DNA of 64,000 bases from Carcharhinus longimanus (taxonomy: Eukaryota). The DNA is taken from assembly GCA_030264375.1 (NCBI GenBank), contig JASCQW010000132.1, positions 75,193,029-75,257,028 of the forward strand, given 5' to 3'. Shown here one piece after another: positions 1 to 64,000 of this stretch (position 1 is its first letter; every line of letters starts with the position of its first letter). Under the pieces are notes generated by a model. That model was given only the letters and a program-made list of their open reading frames with translations, was not told the DNA's origin and made no database searches. The translations under genes and the position numbers were made by a program.

Positions 1-592
1 TGGAACTATATAAAATGTTGATTCATCCACAGCTTGAGTTTTGTGTACATTTCTGGTCACCACATTACAGGAAGGATACAATTGCTTTGGAGAGAGTGCA
101 GAGGAGATTTACAAGAATGTTGCCAGAGCTTGAAAATTGTAGCCATGAAGAGGGATTGGATAGGCTAGGGTTGTTTTACCTTTGAACAGAAGAGGTTAAG
201 AGGTGACAAAATTGAAGCTTACAAAATTGTGGGAGGCCTAGCTAGGATAAACAGGAAAAACTTGATTCCTGAATTGAATTATCAGGGGGCATAGCTTTAA
301 GGTGATTGGTTGAAGGATTAGAGGGGACATGAGGAAAAACCTTTTCACCCAGAGCGTGGTGATCTTCTAGAATTCATTGCATAAGTTGGTGGTTGAGGCT
401 GAAATGATCAACTCAGTTAAAAGATACCTGGATCTGCATCTGAAATGCTGTAACCTGCAAAGCTAGGGGCCAAGCGCTGGGAAGTGAGATTAAAATGAAT
501 GGCTAATTTCTTTGTTCTTTCTATTGGCTGGTGCAGACATGATGGACTGAATGGCCTCCTTCTGTCAAGTATCTTTGCTATGGTTCTATGGT
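1..592 (+). mobile_element. CR1-type LINE, 3' end of ORF2 plus 3' UTR (decayed)
   Basis: Translates to LYKMLIHPQLEFCVHFWSPHYRKDTIALERVQRRFTRMLPELE..., the typical CR1 ORF2 C-terminus; ends in gatggactgaatggcctccttctg...ctatggttctatgg tail. Confidence 0.9.
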
Positions 593-647
593 TATTTTCT
601 AGAAATTAACATTAATTCTAACTGTAATAAGAAATTAATTATGCAGA

Positions 648-1521
648 GGCCATAACTTCCCCAGAGTGGCAATTAACCTGCACTACATTTCTTCAGTGTC
701 TGTCTTGCCTGACCATCCTTACCCAGGCTGGATGAGATCCAAGCTGCACATGGGTCCCTGCATTGATAATTGGAGTCCAGAAGAATCACAGCAAAGAGGG
801 GAATGCCCCCTTTTACAGCACTTGCTGCCATAAAGCAAGTTTAAAGGTCCCATTAAAAATAACAGGCCATAGAGAAAGTAAATGTCTACGGTAAATGGGT
901 GGAATTGCTGGAGGGGGCTTCGGACATTGGGACTATGGACATTGGGAGGGTGGAAGTGGGGCTGGACATGGAGGTGGGCACTGGAACTGTTGGGAGATTG
1001 GGTCGGATCGGAGGTTGGTGCGGATCCAGGTGGGTCAGGTCGGCTTGCCAGGGGTGGGTTGGGTCTGTTTGGAATGAAAGTCAGGTCTTGGGGGAAGAGG
1101 TCCAGCCAGGTTGGGTGGGAGTGAGGATCGGGTCAAGACAGTGGGAGGGGCATGGAAGGAGTAGGTGGAAATCCTTTTCAGTGATGGGGAAATCCCATAG
1201 AGGTTAAGGTGTGTTCAGGTGGGGGGGCGGGTGGGGAGCAGTGCGGGCAGATTGTTATGGTCAGGGTGCCCTGCGCAGTGATTGGTCTTGGTATTTAAAA
1301 TATTTATATTGAAGTTAGAAGTAATTTTATTTCTTCCAACTTTTATAAAGTAACTATGAAGGTAACAATTGTGGAAGTATCGGAGGTTAGAGATTTAATT
1401 TGCTTTGTTGGAAGATTCCCAGCCCAGCACAATTGTTCAGGGGAAATTTGCATTTCTGGGTAGTTGTGCATCTTTGGGATACCCTCAAATCAGATGCTTC
1501 GGAGTCAGGAAGCTATGGGTC
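648..1521 (+). mobile_element. Non-autonomous DNA transposon-like element with terminal inverted repeats and a G-rich interior
   Basis: ggccataacttcc (648-660) and ggaagctatgggtc (1508-1521) are imperfect inverted termini; a related copy lies in the opposite orientation from 1688. Confidence 0.55.
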
Positions 1522-1687
1522 TATAAATATTGAAAGAATGCACTGGACTTTTAGAGTTGTTTCATTCACTTGAGCATCTCTCAAGGTAAATGCAAGGGTG
1601 AGTCAATGATTCTTTCTCCTTAGCTGGGTCAGAGGTATCTCGTTAACCTGATGGCCTTCTACTAATTTAACAATTATGGTAAACTTT

Positions 1688-2017
1688 GGGCCATAGCTTC
1701 TGAGCTCTAGGGTAGTGTAACTGCTTATACTCAAAAGATGCACTAAAGAATCCTTCAGCCCAGGTAATGACTGCGCAGCAACTGCCTAGGCAGTGCAAAT
1801 CTCTGATGGGCAACTACCCTATGTTGGGAAACCTTTGAAACTGTTTTACATCACAAACTTCAGATAGTTCTAAATGAGCTATATAGTTACCCAGAAAAAG
1901 TCAGAAGAATTAAACCATTTCTAACTTCAGAATAATTATAGTACAGAACCATACCAACCCCCCAGTAGAACTCCAGTTGTCTTACAACCCTCCGACTATC
2001 CCACTTGCACGGGACTC

Positions 2018-2052
<35 letters not shown>

Positions 2053-2550
2053 CCACCCCACCCCACCGACCGCCCCTGCCTTTCCCACTCCCAACTCTCC
2101 CACACATCTTCATGAATACCCCACTCCCATAGGACTCCCCCTACTAGCACATCTCCACAGGATTTCCCCCACACCGACATGACTACCCCATCTCCATGAG
2201 AGCTTGCCAACCCCACAGGCATTCTCTCCCCAAGACTGACTCCCACCTCCTCCCCACCCCTGCCTTTAAGGCCTGACTGCTGACCTCAGCAATGCCCCCA
2301 GCCAAGGCCTGACTACCAACCCCTCATCATCACTACCTACCCCCAAAACTTCCATTGGCCCGGTCAACCTTTGAACTTATCTGATTTATGGCAGGTAGTG
2401 TCATAAGAAAAAGAGGGTGTGACTTATTCACCAGTAACTGAGTTGCTCTCAGTGGTAGACCCCAGGATCACATTACACCATACCTATATCAGCTGGTTTA
2501 AGGCAACAGGTCGGAGAGATAGGATCACTTGGATTTCCTGGTAAATACTT
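1688..2550 (-). mobile_element. Second, inverted copy of the same non-autonomous element (C-rich interior, poly-C tract at about 2018-2051)
   Basis: 1688-1940 aligns by eye with the reverse complement of 1290-1521 (ccatagcttc, caaaagatgcac, tgcaaat, atagttac, ttctaacttca blocks in the same order). Confidence 0.55.
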
Positions 2551-2589
2551 TACACTTAATTTTAAATGGCCTCTTTCAAGCCATTGCCT

Positions 2590-2705
2590 AGGGCGCAATC
2601 ATACCGGCTCTTCACGCCGCACTCCCGTTGCGGCAAGGTAGGAGAATTTGGTGCCCAGTCAAATCTCCATTCACTGCAGCATGAATGGCGGTAATATTCT
2701 GGCCT
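2590..2705. mobile_element. Short hairpin MITE (Harbinger/Tourist-like)
   Basis: gggcgcaatcatacc...ggtaatattctggcc imperfect inverted termini flanked by tag/tta; related copies at 9696, 11866, 13857, 25287 and 40748. Confidence 0.5.
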
Positions 2706-4687
2706 TAGTCTTTTTTTTTGTTTTGAATCTGTTTGACAAATCTGGTTCTAAACTTATTTTTCTATGGACATGTGCAATATTGATTGGTTATGCTGAATGG
2801 TAATAAAATACTTGACAATGCTTAAGATCTGAACGTGAATGTACAAATCTTACATAACAGGTTCTTATTACCTGTCCTTCAGATCATTTAGAATCCTCCA
2901 ATAAAATTGCAATTTGCTTCTATTCTTGTGCTGCCCCTTCACTTCAACTCCGACTGGACATTCTTTGGTTGCTCTGATTCCCCAACTACAACTGAGCTAT
3001 CCCTTGAGCTGCACTGTGGTTTAAGTGCTCTCACTCAGAGCTGCCAATGTACTTACAAATGAGAAAACAAAAGCATGAACCCGATAACAGTTCACACCGA
3101 CTTTAACTGTTGCCATAGTGATAATATCTGCATGATGTCATCTGTGGCACTGATTCAACATTGCACAGTAGGAATAGGTGCCAAATGCAATGTGCTACTC
3201 TGAACCAGCTATTCCAAAAGGATAATATTTGGATTAACCATCCAAAAATATGGTTCGAGAGAAAAAAAAAATCCTGACACCATTTTTCAAAAGAAGCATT
3301 GAGAACACTTGCCAGGTGCTACAGGTTCTCTCAAATAGCCTTGCGTCAGGCATAATCTGTGCCAATATGTTACAGAAGTCCGATTAATTCTTAATGAGAA
3401 AGAAACCTTTTTTTTAAGCATACGGGATTTAGTAATTCTAGAAAAGCCTGTTGGAACGCACCTGTAATTAAATTGGAAAGGAAAAGGAAGAAAGAGCAAA
3501 AAATAAAGAGAGGAAGGAAAGGAGAGAGACACAATTAAAAAAAAAACAAGCCATGAACATTTGAGCTGGTATTATTGTTAATCATCCTCTGTTGCACTTT
3601 AAGGATTCAATTGTGCAGCACTCCTGTGTCTGGCCATAGGTAAAGGGTAATATGCAGTGTTCCCATCCACATATGATGGGTATAGTATAATGATCAAATA
3701 ACGGAAATATATGTTTCCTGCCATTCATCATAGGAATGCCTATAATGGCTGTTTGGTCCTGGTATCTGGTGTATGTATAGCAAATTGAAAATTTAAGATG
3801 CCATCATTGATTGCGGTGTCTTTAGCTTTTAAACAGAGGTTTTCAGCAACTTACACTACGAGAAGCCTTGGGTTAATCTACATTATGTCTCCATGGAGAC
3901 TGCTCTGCAAAGACCCAAGAGCCCAACAAAATTATTTAAGTACTTTGGTACTTAAGTACCAAGTAGGACTCAGCCAAATTCTACTATAGCTGGTCACTTA
4001 TCCTTAGCAGGATACCTACATTTTGTGGTCTATCTGGCCATAACAGTTTTAAAACAATTGTCAGGAAAAAAACACTTAAAGTGGTACTTTAAAATAATCA
4101 GAATTATTTGCATGCTCATTCTGAAACAACACAAGAATCAGGACAAAATTTGGAGATCAAAGTTTTAAGTCACATTTAATGTGAACAGAATGGGACATGA
4201 ATATCTCATACTGTCTTCTGATACTCTCATTGATACTGGTATAGCATATCAGCTCAAAGTGAACTATTACAAGCCAAAAATATATTCTGTTATAGGTCAT
4301 GTTAATTTCCCCCAAAGACATACATGCTTTTGTATTTCAGAGGCTCATTAAAATTATCCTTATTACAGACTCACTTGTCAGCATTGGAAGCCTCCTCCTT
4401 TGTAATATTTTTGCTTTAAATTTTTAAAGCAGATTAACGGATACTTCATGCAGAATTGTACAATGAGGTTTTTTTTAAAAAAATTCCTCTCCTGAATAGA
4501 AATAGAAGTTTCTTGGGCTGGAATATTGAGTTTGTTAGCAAGAACTTGAAATCAGGAAAGAAGCAGAAAGATTAGAAGGCCAATAATCAATGCTTTTTCT
4601 GATTGACGTTTCCTCATCAAAGTAAGAACTGATAGTATTAAAACAGCAACTAAATAAAAATAGTCATAATGCCACATTAGGTAATCT

Positions 4688-5235
4688 AGGGGAGACGGTG
4701 AGGTAGTGGTTAATTGGGTTCAAATCATTGGTGAGCCAATGGTTAATTGGGTTCAAATCCCACTACAGTAGCTGCTGGAATCTTTTTTAAATTCATTTGT
4801 GGGACATGGGTGTCACTTGCTGGCCAGCATCTATTGTCCATCCCTAGTTGCCCTCAGAGGGCAATTGAGAGTCAACTGTGGCTCTAGAGTCACAAGTGGG
4901 CCAGAGCAGGTAAGGATGTCAGATTTCCTTCCCTAAAAGGACATTAGTGAACCAGATGGGAGGACACTAGTGAACCAATTAAATTAGTTGAAAGCTAGTT
5001 TCAGTAATGGTGATCATGAAACTATCACTCAAAATGATAAAAACCCTTCTAGCTCACTAATGTCCTTTACAATAGGGAATCTCCTGCCTCTGCCCAGGCT
5101 GGCCTCTTTGACTCCAGACCCACGACAATGTGATTGACCCTTAACTGCCCTTTGACATTCAGTTCAGGGGTAGCTACAGATGGGCAATAAAGGCAGGCCT
5201 TGCCAGTGGTGCTCATATCCCCGAAGAAATAAAGG
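4688..5235 (+). mobile_element. tRNA-headed SINE (same family as 20724-21084) with an inverted 3' fragment of the same SINE nested at about 4783-4975
   Basis: Head ggggagacggtgaggtagtgg...gggttcaaatccc; body ctcactaatgtccttt...gactccagacccac; tail gatgggcaataaaggcagg; the inner segment matches the reverse complement of body and tail. Confidence 0.75.
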
Positions 5236-12793: not shown

Positions 12794-13340
12794 ATGTATT
12801 TCCAGGTCAGGATGGTGTGTGGCTTGGAAGGAGGACCTGCAGGTAGATAGTGCTGCTCCCATTCATCTGGTGCCCTTGTTCTTCTAACTTGTGGAGTTCC
12901 TGGGTTTTGAAGGTGCTGTGGGAAGGAGCCTTGGTGCGTTGCTGCAGTGTATCTTGTAGATGGTACACACTGCTGTCATTGCAAGTGTAAAGTTGCTATA
13001 ATCCCAGAGAACTATAGGCTGCTCTCCCCCTCGAAAGGCAAGAGAGCTGGCTGATACTGGTTTAACCTGAGGATCACTACACCTCAGGTGAGGGGCAAGG
13101 TTGAGCCTTCATGAATAACCTCAGATGGTAGGAAAGNNNNNNNNNNCATGCTGTTGGCGCTGTCCTTCATTAGTAATCAGCTGCCCACTCGACTGAGTGA
13201 AACCTTTACAACAATGGTGGAGATAGTGAATGTTGAAAGTGGTGGAAGGCATGCCAATCAACTTGGCTACTTTGTTCTGAATGGTATCTAGCTTCCTGAG
13301 TGTTGTTGGAACTGCACTCACTCAGGCAAGTGGACACAGT
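12794..13340 (-). mobile_element. 3' fragment of the same LINE family as 60243-63476, interrupted by another tRNA-derived SINE (about 12985-13205, minus)
   Basis: ORF 13121-13321 (MSAVPTTLRKLDTIQNKVAKLIGMPSTTFNIHYLHH) matches the minus-strand translation around 60620-60730; the insert has a tRNA-like head and body gaggttattcatgaagg...cctgaggtgtagtgatcctcaggttaaacc. Confidence 0.75.
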
Positions 13341-20723: not shown

Positions 20724-21084
20724 TTTATTTTTATTCATTGGTGGGTGTCGCTGGCTGACCAGCATTTATTGTCCTGGCCAGCATTAGTTGCCTGAGGGCA
20801 GTTGAGAGTCAACCACATTGCTGTAGCTTTGGAATCACATGTATACCAGAACTGGGAAGGATAGCAGATTTCCTTCCCTAAAGGATATTAGTGAACCAGA
20901 TGGGTTTTTCCAACAATTGACAATGGTTTCATGGTCATCAGTAGACTCTTAATTCCAGATTTTGTTTATTGAATTCAAATTCCACAATCTGCTTTGATGG
21001 GATTCAAATCTGGGTGCCCAGAACATTAGCTGAGTTTCTGGATTAATAGTCTAGCAAAAATACCACTGGGCCATCACCTCCCCC
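20724..21084 (-). mobile_element. Full-length tRNA-headed SINE (head+tail derivative of the 60243-63476 LINE)
   Basis: Minus strand begins ggggaggtgatggcccagtgg (A box) with a degenerate B box; the body closely matches 63195-63476 and is joined directly to the tail caataaatgctggtcagccagcgacacccaccaatgaataaa seen at 60243-60300. Confidence 0.9.
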
Positions 21085-59740: not shown

Positions 59741-60242
59741 TTTGCCCTGAACCTGCCTCCGGTGCATTCATTTTCATTTTTTACTTGAATGGGAAGCTGT
59801 GTAAGTAACTATCCCACTTCTGGGAGGTTGATATCATTGTTCTACTTTTCAACTTTAGCTGTTGACAGCAAGGCTTCCTGAGCCTCAGAAAATCAGCAAC
59901 CATACCCAGATGAGGAGTATCAGACCCCAGTGGTAAGTGCCTTTATATGTAGCTCCACAATCCAACCTACCTGCCTCCCTACAAAGCCACCCAGTTATGA
60001 GTAATTCCCATTAATAGAGAAAACGTTTACTTTGCAGAGGCAAAAACCAGTCATACCCTTCTCAATATGCAGGATGTCAAAGATGGGGAATGTTCACCTA
60101 TTGTAGTTTCTCCATCTGTCAGAGCACATTAATTTGTCTGATGGCCCTTCAAGTGCTTCGTCACTTATACTTTTTAACCAGAGATGATAGGTGACCTCCT
60201 TCAATCACGCAATAGTGACAGCGTCAAATACTTAAAAAAAAA

Positions 60243-63200
60243 TTATTCATTTGCGGGACATGGGCGTCGCTGGTTAGCCAGCATTTATTGCCCATCCCTA
60301 CTGACCCTTGAGAAGGTGGTGATGAGCTACCTTCTTGAATCGCTGCAGTCCATATTCTGTGGGCTGACCCACAGCACCGTAAGAGGGGGAAGTCGAGGAT
60401 TTTGGCCCAGCGACTGTGAAGGAATGGCGGTATATTTCCAAGTCAGGATGATGAGTGGCTTGGAGAGGAATTTGCAGGTGGTGGTGTTCTCATGTATCTG
60501 CTGCCCTTGTCCCTTTAGACAGAAGTGGTTGTGGGTTTGGAAGATGCTGTCTAAGGATCTTTGGTGAATTGCTGCAGTGCATCTTGTAGATAGTACACAT
60601 TCCTGCGACTGAACATCAATGGTGGAAAGACTGAATGTTTGCAGATATGGTGCCAGTCAAGAAGGCTGCTTTGTCCTGGATAGTGTCAAGCTTCTTGAGT
60701 GTTGTTTGAGCTGCACCCATCCAGGCAAGCGGGAGTATCACACCCCTGACTTGTGCCTTGTAGATGGTGGATAGGCTTTGGGGAGTCAGGAGTTGAGTTA
60801 CTTATCACAGTATTCCTAGCCTCTGACCTGCTCTTGCAGCCATTGTGTTTATGTGGTGAGTCCAGTTGAGTTTCTGGTCAATGGTATCCCAAGGATGTTG
60901 ACACTGGGGGATTCAGTGATGGTTACACCATTGAATGTCAAGTGTTAGAGTGTTTCTTATTGGTGATGGTCATTGCCTGGCATTTATGTGGCACAAATGT
61001 TACTTGCCACTTGTCAGCCCAAGTCTGATATTGTCCAGATCTTGTTGCATTTGAACATGGGCTGCTTCAGCATCTGAGGAGTCGCGTATGTGCTGAACAT
61101 TATGCAATTATCGGTGAACATCCTCACTTCTAACCTTATAATGGAGGGAAGGTCATTGATGGGTCAGGTGAAGATTGTTTGGTCTAGGACACTACCCCAA
61201 GGGACTCCTTCAGAGATGTTCTGGATTTGAGATGACAGACTCTCCACAACCACTACCATCTTCCTATGGACCAGGTATGACTCCAACCAGCGGAGAGTTT
61301 GCCCCCGATACCCATTGATTCCAGTTTCACTAGGATTCCTTGATGTCACATTCAGTCGAATGCGGACTTGATGTCAAGGACTGTCACTCTCACCTCATCT
61401 CTGGAATTCAGCTCATTTGTCCATGTTTGAACCAAGGCTGTAATGAGGTCAGCAGCTGAGTGACCCTGGTGAAACCCAAACTGGGCGTCGCTGAGCAGGT
61501 TATTGCTGAGCAGGCGCTGCTTGATAGCATTGTTGATGATCCTTCCATCACTTTACTGATGATCAAGAGTAGACTGATTGGGCGGTAATTGGCCAGGTTA
61601 GATTTGCCTTGCTTTTTGTGTACAGGACATACCTGGACAATTTTCCACTTGGTTGTGTAGACGCCAGTGTTGTAACTATACTGGGAGAGTTTGGCTAGAG
61701 GAGCAGCAAGTTCTGGAGCATAAGTCTTCAGTGCTATTGCTGGAATGTTATGAGGGCCCATTGCCTTTGCAGTATCCAGTACCTCCAACTATTTCTTGAT
61801 ATCAGATGGAGTGAATCGAATTGGCTGGAAACTGGCATCTGAGATGCTGGGGACCACTGGAGGAGGCCAAGATGGATCAGCCACTCGGCACTTCTGGCTA
61901 AAGATTACTGCAAATACTTCAGCCTTTTCTTCTGCACTGATGTATTGGGCTCCTTCATCATTGAGGATGGGATATTTGTGGAGCCTCCTCCTCCACTGAG
62001 TTGTTTGATTGTCCACCACTATTCTCGACTGGATGTGGCAGGACTGCAGAGCTTAGATGTGATCCATGGTTATGGTATCACTTAGCTCTGTCTATCACAT
62101 GCTGTTTTTGCCATTTGGCATGCAAGTAGCTTCACAAGAAGCTTTTGTAGCTTTGCCAGGTTGACACCTCATTTTCAGATATGCCCTAGTGCTGCTCCTG
62201 GCATACCTCCTCCACTCTCCATTGAACCAGGGTTGATCCCCTGGCCTGATGGTAACGGTTGAGTGGGGGAATATGCCAGACCATGAAGTTACAGATTGTG
62301 CTGGAGTACAATTCGGCTGCTGTTGATGGCCCACAGCGCCTCATGGATGCCCAGTCTTGAGTTGCTAGATTGGTTCAAAGTCTATCCTATTTAGCACGGT
62401 GATAGTGCCGCACAACAGAATGGAGGTTACTCTCAATATGAAGGCAGGGACTTTGTCTCCGCAAGGACTGTGCGGTGCTCAGTCTTACTGATACTATCAT
62501 GGACAGATGCTCTGCAGCTGGCAGATTGGCAAGGATGAGGTAAAGGATGTTATTTCCTTTTGTTGGTTCCTTCATCACCTGCTGCAGACCCAGCCTAGAT
62601 TGATTCGATCAGTAGTGCTGCTGCCAAGTCACTCTTGGTGGTGGACATTGAAATTCCCCACTCAGAGTACATTCTGTGCTCTTGTCACCCTCAGTGTTTC
62701 TTCCAAGTGTTGTTCTACATGGGGGAAATAGTGACTCATCAGCCAAAGGAGGATGGTACATGGTAACCAGGAAGAGGTTACCTTATCCATGTTTAACCTG
62801 AAGCCATGAGACTTCATGGGGTCTGGAGTTGATGTTAAGGACTCCCAGGGCAACTCCCTCCCAACTGTATACCACTGTGCCAGCACCTCAGCTGGGTCTG
62901 TCCTGTTGGTGGCACAGACATATCCAGGGGTGGTAATGATGGTGTCTGGTTTGTTATCTGTAAGGTACGATTCTGTGAGAATGACTATGTCAGGCTGTTG
63001 CTAGACTAGTCTGTGAGACAGCTCTCCCAATTTTGGCACTAGCCCCCAGATGTTAGGAAGGAGGACTTTGCAGGGTCAACAGTGCTCTTTGTTTTACCGT
63101 TGTCTTTTCCAGTGCTTAGGTTGATGCCAGGTGCTCCGTCCGGTTTCATTTCTTTGTTGAGACTTTGTAGCCAATGTTACAATTGAGGCTGTTTCAGAGG

Positions 63201-63476
63201 GCAGTTGAGAGTCAACCACATTGCTGTGGCTTTGGAGTCACATGTAGGCCAGACCAGGTAAGGACAGCAGATTTCCTTCTCTAAAGGACATTAGTGAGCC
63301 AGATGGGTTTTTCCAACAATCAATTATGGTTTCATGGTCATCAGTAGCCTCTTAATTCCAGATATTTTTTATTGAATTCAAATTCCACCATCAGCCATGA
63401 TGGGATTCGAACCCAGGTCCCCAGAGCATTCTGGATGAGTAGTTGAGTGATAATACCACTAGGCCATCACCTCCCC
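60243..63476 (-). mobile_element. Apparently full-length single-ORF non-LTR retrotransposon (APE endonuclease + RT, CR1/L2/Jockey group) with a tRNA-like 5' head; ORF decayed
   Basis: 5' ggggaggtga-TGGCCTAGTGG...GGTTCGAATCC. APE: NIWGLVPKLGELSHRL..QPDIVILTESYL, GNFNVHHQEWLGS, KEPTKGNNIL. RT: LDTAKAMGPHNIP..KTYAPELAAPLAKL..ANYRPISLL, QFGFHQGHS, LDIKSAFD, GVPWGSVL, INDLP..MFTDN. 3' tail gatgggcaataaatgctgg...gaataa; candidate TSD TACTT(A/G)AAA. Confidence 0.88.
63403..63466 (-). promoter_or_regulatory. Type 2 RNA polymerase III internal promoter (A box 63466-63456, B box 63413-63403)
   Basis: TGGCCTAGTGG fits TRGCNNARYGG; GGTTCGAATCC is a perfect B-box consensus; the spacing is tRNA-like. Confidence 0.8.
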
Positions 63477-63724
63477 TACTTGAAACCTCTTCAGTTGTGA
63501 AGATTAATTTGTAATATATGTCACAGGGCTTCTTAGGTGGCTGTGTTTTTTATGGCGTTGATGAGTTAAGCCGTGCAGGTGCATTAATCAACTGACTTCA
63601 GCAGCCGTTAACAGGTGTTTTACAGCTGGCTGCATTTGTTGTCAATGCCATGCATGTATAGTTCTCCTGTTTTACTCTGGGTGGAGCATCGGTCAGGAAA
63701 TCAGGAAGCATGGATTTCTTTGAG

Positions 63725-64000
63725 GACAGCACGGTTGCTAGCACTGCTGCCTCAAACTGAGAGACTTGTGTTCAATTCCAGCCTCAGGTGACTGTGTGGA
63801 GTCTGCATGTTCTCCCGGTCTCTGCATGGGTTTCCTCCCACAGTCCAAAGGTGTGTGGGTTAGGTAGATCGGACATGCTAAATTGAACATTAATGCCATG
63901 AGGATTAGCAGAGTAAATATGTGGGGTTACAGGGATAGGGCGTGTGAGATTGTAGTCGGTGCAGATTTGCTGGGCCAAATGGCCTCCTTCTGCTCTATAG
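63725..64000 (+). mobile_element. HE1-type SINE
   Basis: gacagcacggttgctagcactgctgcctca...gggtttcctcccacagtccaaagg...gggccaaatggcctccttctgc. Confidence 0.9.

What the first reader, a model, noticed from the sequence alone, without database searches (positions are those of the whole stretch)
60229..63485. Autonomous-type LINE whose 5' end is a tRNA-like Pol III promoter, with no ORF1
Seen (minus): the element starts at 63476 with an A box (TGGCCTAGTGG) and a perfect B box (GGTTCGAATCC). It runs ~420 nt without any tail or poly-A break into an APE endonuclease (NIWGLVPKLGEL..QPDIVILTESYL, starting about 63055), then RT and the family 3' tail. The whole unit is bracketed by TACTTAAAA (60229-60237) and TACTTGAAA (63477-63485), a plausible TSD implying a single insertion. 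There is no room for an ORF1. Established: LINEs of the CR1/L2/Jockey group normally use Pol II internal promoters and usually encode ORF1, while tRNA heads define non-coding SINEs. Inference: a SINE-LINE hybrid, i.e. a protein-coding retrotransposon driven by a tRNA-type promoter that also spawns head+tail SINEs (20724, 4688). I do not know of a description of this in sharks but cannot search the literature. This copy's ORF is decayed.
Basis: partly seen in the sequence, partly recalled or inferred. Interest (0 to 1): 0.85.

Follow-up and report, generated by a model that had tools for sequence, protein, structure and literature searches.

The report
Shark LINE with Pol III head
This is a dead copy of an abundant shark jumping gene (a Zenon LINE) whose full-length form starts with a tRNA-derived promoter-like head and lacks RNA polymerase III stop signals along all 3.3 kb, so it was likely a protein-coding retrotransposon transcribed by the polymerase that normally makes only short non-coding RNAs.

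Summary
Confirmed as a family feature; the TSD claim fails. Of 60 copies picked by the endonuclease alone, 29 run unbroken into the same tRNA-Thr-like head, and none shows another shared 5' end. The family is the elasmobranch Zenon LINE of Stuart et al. 2026 (PMC13343379). No ORF1 is normal for Zenon. All 7 published shark and ray consensuses begin with this head, but the paper never mentions tRNA or a promoter. New here: over 3,275 alignment columns the sense strand has 0 TTTT runs and 0 four-of-five-T windows (23 expected). Shark CR1 and Rex1-like families and 65 related ORFs show no such gap. This is the mark expected if Pol III reads the whole element. The frame is open for 979 codons, and subfamily changes are mostly silent (22 of 34), so the headed form encoded its own enzyme. 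It has no in-frame AUG before codon 295. SINEs are head plus tail, with several junctions. The body does not match the Deu domain. Pol III transcription and translation are inferred, not shown. The scan found this family before in three other genomes.

The parts
63380..63476 (-). tRNA-derived head (closest tested: tRNA-Thr(AGT)), with about 20 extra nt between anticodon arm and T arm in the family; this copy lacks 11 nt of that insert
   Evidence: Aligns to the genome's own tRNA-Thr(AGT) gene L234: score 51 vs best of 300 shuffles 45.5. Column counts. Folds with z -2.7 to -3.8.
63456..63466 (-). A box
   Evidence: each column 28-35 of 35-36 copies
63403..63413 (-). B box
   Evidence: majority in every column, with CpG decay at two
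63197..63379 (-). 5' body shared with the SINE; not Deu, Meta or V domain as far as I could compare; holds several upstream ATGs
   Evidence: near-identical by eye in 7 published shark and ray Zenon consensuses
63055..63193 (-). LINE-specific leader: open in the endonuclease frame but without ATG; a conserved ATG at 63149 lies in another frame
62300..63054 (-). APE endonuclease domain (NIWGL, LTE, GDFN, LDL, SDH motif columns), broken in this copy
   Evidence: Pfam PF14529 E 1e-9 and PF03372 E 1.4e-5 on copy L015 (2 of the 4 pieces sent gave no family, 1 gave only a hit below cut-off)
60900..61800 (-). Reverse transcriptase domain (NYRPI, QFGF, KAAFD, GVPQG, FADD motif columns); this copy reads FTDN at the catalytic box
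   Evidence: nearly all full-length relatives carry PF00078
60298..60300 (-). ORF stop codon, inside the tail shared with the SINE
60238..60312 (-). 3' tail shared with the SINEs, with AATAAA at 60289-60284; poly-A in most copies, a T-run in this one
20724..21084 (-). Full-length SINE of the same head, body and tail
4780..4960 (-). 5'-truncated SINE (body plus tail)

Best explanation
The locus is a decayed full-length copy of the elasmobranch Zenon LINE, a single-ORF endonuclease-RT retrotransposon that begins with a tRNA-Thr-like A box/B box head and was likely transcribed end to end by RNA polymerase III, the 3.3 kb RNA likely serving as both message and template. Shown: the head is the family's 5' end; the frame is open for 979 codons; the source elements were under purifying selection; T-runs are absent on the sense strand; there is no in-frame AUG ahead of the endonuclease. 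Inferred steps: (1) TFIIIC binds the boxes and Pol III starts at the G-run. (2) The polymerase crosses the element because TTTT and degenerate T-rich terminators were purged, and stops in flanking DNA or near the tail. (3) The uncapped RNA is translated without scanning, from a non-AUG start or by a shift from the conserved out-of-frame ATG about 95 nt ahead of NIWGL. (4) The protein binds the 3' tail and inserts the RNA by target-primed reverse transcription, mostly 5'-truncated and without a TSD. (5) The SINEs are the same RNA with the ORF removed, mobilised in trans. The head likely joined Zenon once, by template switch, before sharks and rays split.
For: Head is the 5' end: 29 of 60 endonuclease-selected copies run unbroken into it, 22 end at scattered points inside the same 5' part, 3 reach it across a break, 5 hit an assembly gap and 1 ends at the endonuclease. 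No other upstream sequence is shared at the truncation points. 7 of 7 published elasmobranch Zenon consensuses start with it; 0 of 3 hagfish and coelacanth ones do in the 400 nt shown (by eye). Coding: 0 stop columns of 979 once CpG decay is allowed for (3 without, all CGA/TGA/CAA mixtures). Linked subfamily variants are 22 silent vs 12 replacement, ratio about 0.19, P 2.5e-6. Head subtype is linked to ORF variants at 5 columns, 3 of them outside CpG. Pol III mark: 0 TTTT and 0 four-of-five-T windows in 3,275 columns vs 4.4 and 23.2 in shuffles (3 of 600 and 0 of 600 reach it), while A, C and G runs are as expected. 0 vs 11.7 in the ORF under synonymous-codon shuffling, 0 of 1,500. Controls by the same method: canonical CR1 has 3.1 TTTT and 23 windows per kb, Rex1-like 3.0 and 14. 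65 related metagenome ORFs have an observed/shuffled ratio of median 1.11, minimum 0.64, and none lacks TTTT. The window copy has 0 TTTT in 3,231 nt vs 6.8 per kb in the rest of the window. Human Pol III stops at T4 or longer and at degenerate T-rich signals (PMC3141230).
Against: No transcript evidence: the putative RNA runs are contigs and cannot show start, strand, cap or polymerase. TTTT alone is not significant against the codon shuffle (P 0.09) or a first-order Markov null (P 0.12); the signal rests on TTT and four-of-five-T counts. Kojima states that non-LTR retrotransposons are Pol II transcribed and that SINE length is limited by weak Pol III processivity (PMC10886601). An uncapped RNA with upstream ATGs and no in-frame AUG until codon 295 should translate poorly, and no fold stands out in the body (z -0.7 to +1.8). 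Unlinked common variants gave only weak selection (ratio about 0.6). Every copy seen is old (median 9.8% from column majority). A 20-nt insert widens the A-B spacing.
Confidence: 0.62

Rival explanations
1. Pol II transcribes the LINE (from the body or by read-through). The tRNA head is a retained passenger or a TFIIIC-bound boundary, and T-run loss has another cause such as RNA stability or pairing with the poly-A tail.
For: Pol II is the rule for LINEs (PMC10886601; PMC5786205). It solves capping. AATAAA lies in the tail.
Against: It does not predict a sense-strand-only, T-only purge through the whole ORF. The closest headless relatives with DNA (L301, L307, L300, L304) have ratios of 0.95-1.62. 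Copies start within a few bases of the same G-run, about 10 nt ahead of the A box, as for a type 2 Pol III promoter (established knowledge, recalled).
Confidence: 0.18
2. Division of labour: Pol III makes the RNA that gets inserted, while the protein comes from rarer capped Pol II read-through RNAs of other copies.
For: It explains the T-run purge and the sharp 5' end without translation of an uncapped RNA. The protein works in trans on SINEs.
Against: Purifying selection on linked subfamily variants is easier to keep if each source copy uses its own protein. The missing AUG is still unexplained.
Confidence: 0.15
3. The headed form is a non-autonomous hitch-hiker copied by a normal, headless Zenon elsewhere in the genome.
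For: No intact copy was found. 29 of 40 RT-selected copies end inside the ORF, so their 5' ends are unknown. Searches score only the best candidates.
Against: No alternative 5' end in 60 endonuclease-selected or 40 RT-selected copies. The frame is open and subfamily changes are silent-biased. All 7 published consensuses are headed.
Confidence: 0.04
4. Chance neighbours: a SINE inserted next to a truncated LINE at this locus.
For: It happens: 3 of 40 RT-selected copies have a separate SINE upstream (L208, L210, L228). The TSD is not significant.
Against: 499 exact junction 18-mers. The same junction is bridged by contigs in runs of other organisms (records 8 and 32) and stands in published consensuses.
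Confidence: 0.01

Closest known systems
Elasmobranch Zenon LINEs (CarCar, RhiTyp, ScyCan, HypSab Zenon-1, SquAca Zenon-1/2/3; Stuart et al. 2026, PMC13343379)
   Same: Same family: 2.9-3.3 kb, single APE-RT ORF, no ORF1, poly-A tail. The first 400 nt of the published consensuses match head, body and leader by eye, RhiTyp_Zenon-1 most closely.
   Different: The paper has 0 hits for 'tRNA' and 'promoter' in the main text and 0 for 'tRNA' in the supplement as held. I saw no mention there of a SINE partner, the T-run purge or the missing AUG.
Lepidopteran Zenon and its internally deleted derivative Persaeus (Wang et al. 2019, PMC6740152)
   Same: Single-ORF Zenon of about 3.3 kb that repeatedly yields short 5'+3' derivatives.
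   Different: Persaeus has no tRNA homology and no Pol III promoter. Here both LINE and short form carry the head.
RTE-1_DAn and relatives (Kojima 2018, PMC5786205)
   Same: LINEs noted to contain a tRNA-like sequence (one sentence).
   Different: Another clade. The paper treats the hits as noise to remove and gives no position, function or polymerase. I did not see the sequence.
tRNA-headed bipartite SINEs (Bov-tA, AfroSINE, SINE2_Gav; Kojima 2018 model)
   Same: Head plus LINE 5' part plus LINE 3' tail.
   Different: In that model the head joins an already deleted LINE. Here the head sits on the full coding LINE.
Cassandra, Helenus, Ajax (TRIMp3; Kojima 2024, PMC10886601)
   Same: Retrotransposons with a small-RNA-derived Pol III promoter.
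   Different: LTR-type, non-coding, 311-1263 bp.
SacSINE1/Deu-SINEs and HE1 V-SINE of sharks
   Same: tRNA-headed shark SINEs.
   Different: The body here does not resemble the Deu core shown for EbuSINE2 and SINE2-2_CM or the V domain. The tail is Zenon's, whereas SacSINE1's is reported as L2-2_CM-like. I did not see the SacSINE1 or HE1 consensus itself.

Membership tests
Elasmobranch Zenon LINE | Single ORF with APE and RT, no ORF1 | tested here: met
   979 codon columns, 0 stops, motifs in order
Elasmobranch Zenon LINE | Poly-A tail | tested here: met
   A-rich ends in most copies; 7 of 25 tails have 1 or more T before the A-run
Elasmobranch Zenon LINE | High nucleotide identity to the published consensuses | tested here: met
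   By eye on the first 400 nt of 7 consensuses; not aligned by program, remainder not shown
Elasmobranch Zenon LINE | RT falls in the Zenon clade | tested here: inconclusive
   Tree of 41 rows: shark copies 100/100, apart from canonical shark CR1, nearest to 4 unnamed proteins (88/85), in a weakly supported group with insect, crustacean and amphioxus sequences, into which the long-branched Rex1-like rows also fall; no named Zenon reference on hand
tRNA-derived SINE (SINE2) | A and B boxes at the 5' end | tested here: met
tRNA-derived SINE (SINE2) | Head homologous to a tRNA | tested here: met
   Aligns to tRNA-Thr(AGT) L234 above 300 shuffles. Only this one tRNA was tried and it was found with a pattern built from the head, so the isotype is tentative; no cloverleaf by ARAGORN or Rfam
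tRNA-derived SINE (SINE2) | No internal Pol III terminator | tested here: met
tRNA-derived SINE (SINE2) | Short and non-coding | tested here: not met
   3.3 kb with a 979-codon frame; met only by the short partner
tRNA-derived SINE (SINE2) | Transcribed by Pol III | not testable with these tools
   Only contigs could be laid
Deu-SINE (SacSINE1) | Deu/Nin central domain | tested here: not met
   A 16-nt Deu core motif taken has no match in the element or the two SINEs at up to 3 mismatches (3 hits elsewhere in the window, 1.6 expected); SacSINE1 consensus not seen
MetaSINE | 66-bp Meta domain right after a tRNA-Thr-like head | tested here: not met
   By eye against bivalve Meta SINEs only; the fish members were not seen
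V-SINE (HE1) | V domain | tested here: not met
   By eye against bivalve V-SINE alignments
SIDE (Persaeus type), for the short partner | 5' and 3' ends of the partner Zenon, middle missing | tested here: met
   (joints skipping about 2,900 nt)
SIDE (Persaeus type), for the short partner | No Pol III promoter | tested here: not met
   A and B boxes present

The most novel reading that the evidence does not exclude
Elasmobranch Zenon is an autonomous, protein-coding retrotransposon transcribed over 3.3 kb by RNA polymerase III and translated without cap or AUG. It rewrote its whole coding sequence to drop Pol III terminators, kept this way of life in both sharks and rays, and makes SINEs simply by losing its ORF.
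Probability: 0.6. Interest if true: 0.87.

Novelty: new variant of a known kind. Interest (0 to 1): 0.72.

Why it matters
The working rule is that LINEs use Pol II and only short non-coding SINEs use Pol III (stated in PMC10886601). A coding LINE with a tRNA head and a terminator-free 3.3 kb body would break that rule. It would be a natural case of a long Pol III message, and would raise a testable question about translating an uncapped RNA with no in-frame AUG. It also gives a route to SINE birth that differs from the bipartite model of PMC5786205: head first, deletion second. Practically, shark repeat libraries will split these elements into SINE and LINE pieces, and the head-body segment is one of the commonest repeats in these genomes (7,963 exact SINE-junction matches).

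Tried and rejected
TSD: not above chance. Deu/SacSINE1 identity: this was my own first reading, recalled from memory, and I dropped it. Meta and V domains did not match by eye. Older subfamily: a search with divergent copy L127 returned only the main family at 74-77%, so no between-subfamily comparison at depth was possible. Seven SINE copies with tRNA-like short A-B spacing each have a different junction and look like independent deletions of the insert, so they are not evidence of an ancestral head. Structure in the body (IRES or ribozyme): no window stood out. Which frame the leader codes in: by-eye comparison with the stingray consensus gave 3 silent of 6 changes in the ATG frame and 2 of 6 in the endonuclease frame; undecided. 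The stretch before that ATG varies by non-multiples of 3 between species, so it is probably non-coding. Protein search with the endonuclease piece found nothing. PDB gave no match. Pfam missed the short RT pieces. RNA runs: contigs of run X16 bridge body and endonuclease (records 13-15), but RNA is a guess and contigs show no start or strand; depth figures were not used. Self-target avoidance as the cause of T loss: rejected, because A-runs (T-runs on the other strand) are at expected levels. One region (L033) was fetched with wrong coordinates and dropped. P0097, the top hit, is a duplicated moth protein whose score is inflated.
Full report
Observation. On the minus strand the element runs from 63476 to about 60238. 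The copy is dead, with 21 in-frame stops and 18 frameshifting indels. The proposed TSD is not above chance. Only 5 nt match exactly, 22% of mismatched flank pairs do as well, and 0 of 15 two-ended LINE copies and 1 of 23 SINEs have a repeat of 7 nt or more.

The head is the family's 5' end. A 401-nt junction query gave 5,018 first-look candidates; 40 were scored and all matched. To avoid selecting for the head I searched with an endonuclease peptide (152 matches) and fetched 60 of the best-ranked, skipping short contigs and most loci already held. Of these, 29 run unbroken into the head, 22 stop at scattered points within the same 5' part, 3 reach it across a break, 5 meet an assembly gap and 1 stops at the endonuclease. 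Upstream flanks share no sequence at the junction, in truncated or in headed copies. Of 40 RT-selected copies (from 152 matches), 29 end inside the ORF, 4 at gaps, 1 runs unbroken to the head, 3 were scored as reaching the shared 5' part (one of them, L191, by a separate body fragment) and 3 have a separate SINE upstream. No alternative 5' end is shared. Exact junction 18-mers number 499 for the LINE form, with control 0. Contigs from runs of other organisms bridge body and endonuclease (records 8 and 32). RT fragments sit in gene models of Mobula, Heptranchias, Scyliorhinus, Pristiophorus and Heterodontus.

What the family is. Stuart et al. 2026 (PMC13343379; passages, outline and supplement rows cut at 400 characters seen) report Zenon elements from five elasmobranchs, all without ORF1 and with a poly-A tail. 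All 7 of their shark and ray consensuses start with this head, body and leader. The 2 hagfish and 1 coelacanth Zenons do not, in the 400 nt shown, and two of those three show T-runs there (by eye). The words 'tRNA' and 'promoter' do not occur in their main text. So the missing ORF1 is ordinary, and the head is in print as sequence but unremarked. My RT tree separates the shark copies from canonical shark CR1 and puts them among invertebrate sequences, with weak deep support and no named Zenon reference. The whale shark preprint names CR1-Zenon only as a class.

The head. It aligns to the genome's tRNA-Thr(AGT) gene above 300 shuffles. It keeps the T arm and an anticodon-like stem, and it carries about 20 extra nt between them. 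ARAGORN and Rfam do not call it a tRNA. I first took the body for the Deu domain from memory. The Deu core shown in Kojima's supplement is unlike it and the motif is absent; bivalve Meta and V domains also differ by eye. The SacSINE1 consensus and Nishihara 2006 were not available, and Repbase and Dfam could not be searched.

It encoded its own enzyme. In an alignment of 80 copies (3,289 columns, median divergence 9.8%) one frame is open from column 295 to 3231. Three stop-majority columns are CGA/TGA/CAA mixtures from CpG decay, and 0 of 979 remain after adjustment. Catalytic motif columns are intact. In 149 copies, 35 of 71 common variants are linked. From the endonuclease on, 22 of 34 are silent against an opportunity ratio of 2.84, a ratio of about 0.19 with P 2.5e-6. 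Two head subtypes are linked to ORF variants, so head and ORF travelled together. Unlinked common variants gave only about 0.6. The first in-frame ATG column is codon 295, past the endonuclease. A conserved ATG lies 95 columns ahead of NIWGL in another frame; which start is used is unresolved.

The Pol III mark. Human Pol III stops at four or more T and at degenerate T-rich signals (PMC3141230, abstract and section 13). The sense strand has 0 TTTT, 5 TTT and 0 four-of-five-T windows in 3,275 columns, against 4.4, 21.9 and 23.2 in shuffles; A, C and G runs are normal. The gap holds in every segment, and against synonymous-codon shuffles (0 vs 11.7, 0 of 1,500). TTTT alone is weak against codon and Markov nulls (P 0.09 and 0.12). 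Two other LINE families of this genome, treated alike (27 copies each, 956 and 2,325 columns), have about 3 TTTT per kb and 14-23 windows per kb. Of 80 related metagenome loci, the 65 with a frame of 330 codons or more have a median ratio of 1.11 and a minimum of 0.64; none lacks TTTT and none has both boxes upstream. These 65 are single sequences and not all are Zenon. This is the main evidence that the head is a working promoter for the whole element. It is indirect.

The SINEs. The 30 best matches to the 20724 SINE share head and body and join straight to the last 60-70 nt of the LINE, through at least four junction forms. Exact counts are 2,107 for the long form and 5,856 for the short forms. 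LINE and SINE heads differ at 17 of 293 columns, mostly alignment ends and CpG sites; the three diagnostic sites also occur in 7 of 36 ORF-bearing copies. This fits repeated internal deletion, as for Persaeus from Zenon (PMC6740152, passages), or a SINE front end grafted on a truncated Zenon, which would also explain the lost AUG. I cannot tell which came first.

Mechanism and odds. Most likely (0.62) Pol III makes one full-length RNA that is translated by a cap- and AUG-independent route and then inserted. Rivals are Pol II with a passenger head (0.18), Pol III template with protein from Pol II RNAs (0.15), a hitch-hiker on a headless Zenon (0.04) and chance (0.01). The laid RNA-like runs are contigs and decide nothing.

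Novelty. Ten searches of the held library found no report of a Pol III-transcribed coding LINE or of this head. [quoted passage not shown] Other papers seen: PMC5499810 parts 1-2 of 6; PMC4824008 passages, section 9 and supplement parts 1-2; PMC11481361, PMC10468316, PMC2746220 and PMC3531059 passages. Most subscription papers are not held, and supplements I could not read (PMC5499810, PMC3531059, file 1 of PMC4824008) may name the SINE. Three earlier notes of this scan describe the same family in other genomes (read after my identification); none mentions the T-run test in the lines shown. I rate it a new variant of a known kind, interest 0.72.

Noticed in passing
window 63750-64000, + strand: Another repeat just upstream of the head, found in several fetched loci; it has a V-domain-like motif and looks like the shark HE1 SINE (name recalled).
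   Followed up: no
window 12797-12975 and 13208-13333, - strand: Further 3' fragments of the same Zenon family, 74-75% identical to the focal copy.
   Followed up: no
window 5005-5155, + strand: A second SINE body fragment, inverted and next to the SINE at 4780-4960.
   Followed up: no
window 63290-63265, - strand: The body has a purine-rich stretch (TAG..GAAGGAAA) resembling the conserved RTE 5' UTR motif shown in the Kojima 2018 supplement. It is short and may be chance; if real it could mark a shared initiation element of single-ORF LINEs.
   Followed up: partly
ORF columns 295-3231: Phe is 1.8% of codon columns, with TTC:TTT 16:2 and one TTA, against a median 3.1% in 14 close relatives and 5.3% in 65 metagenome ORFs; T avoidance may reach the protein level.
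   Followed up: partly
3' ends, e.g. window 60238-60246, L138, L154, L156: 7 of 25 tails carry T before the A-run and the tail holds AATAAA, recalling polyadenylated Pol III SINE RNAs (PMC8466645, search listing only).
   Followed up: partly
P0002, P0005, P0006, P0018, P0026, P0060-P0062: Annotated shark and ray gene models contain Zenon RT fragments, probably mis-predicted exons.
   Followed up: no
L234:1494-1567: A genuine tRNA-Thr(AGT) gene followed by T-runs.
   Followed up: yes
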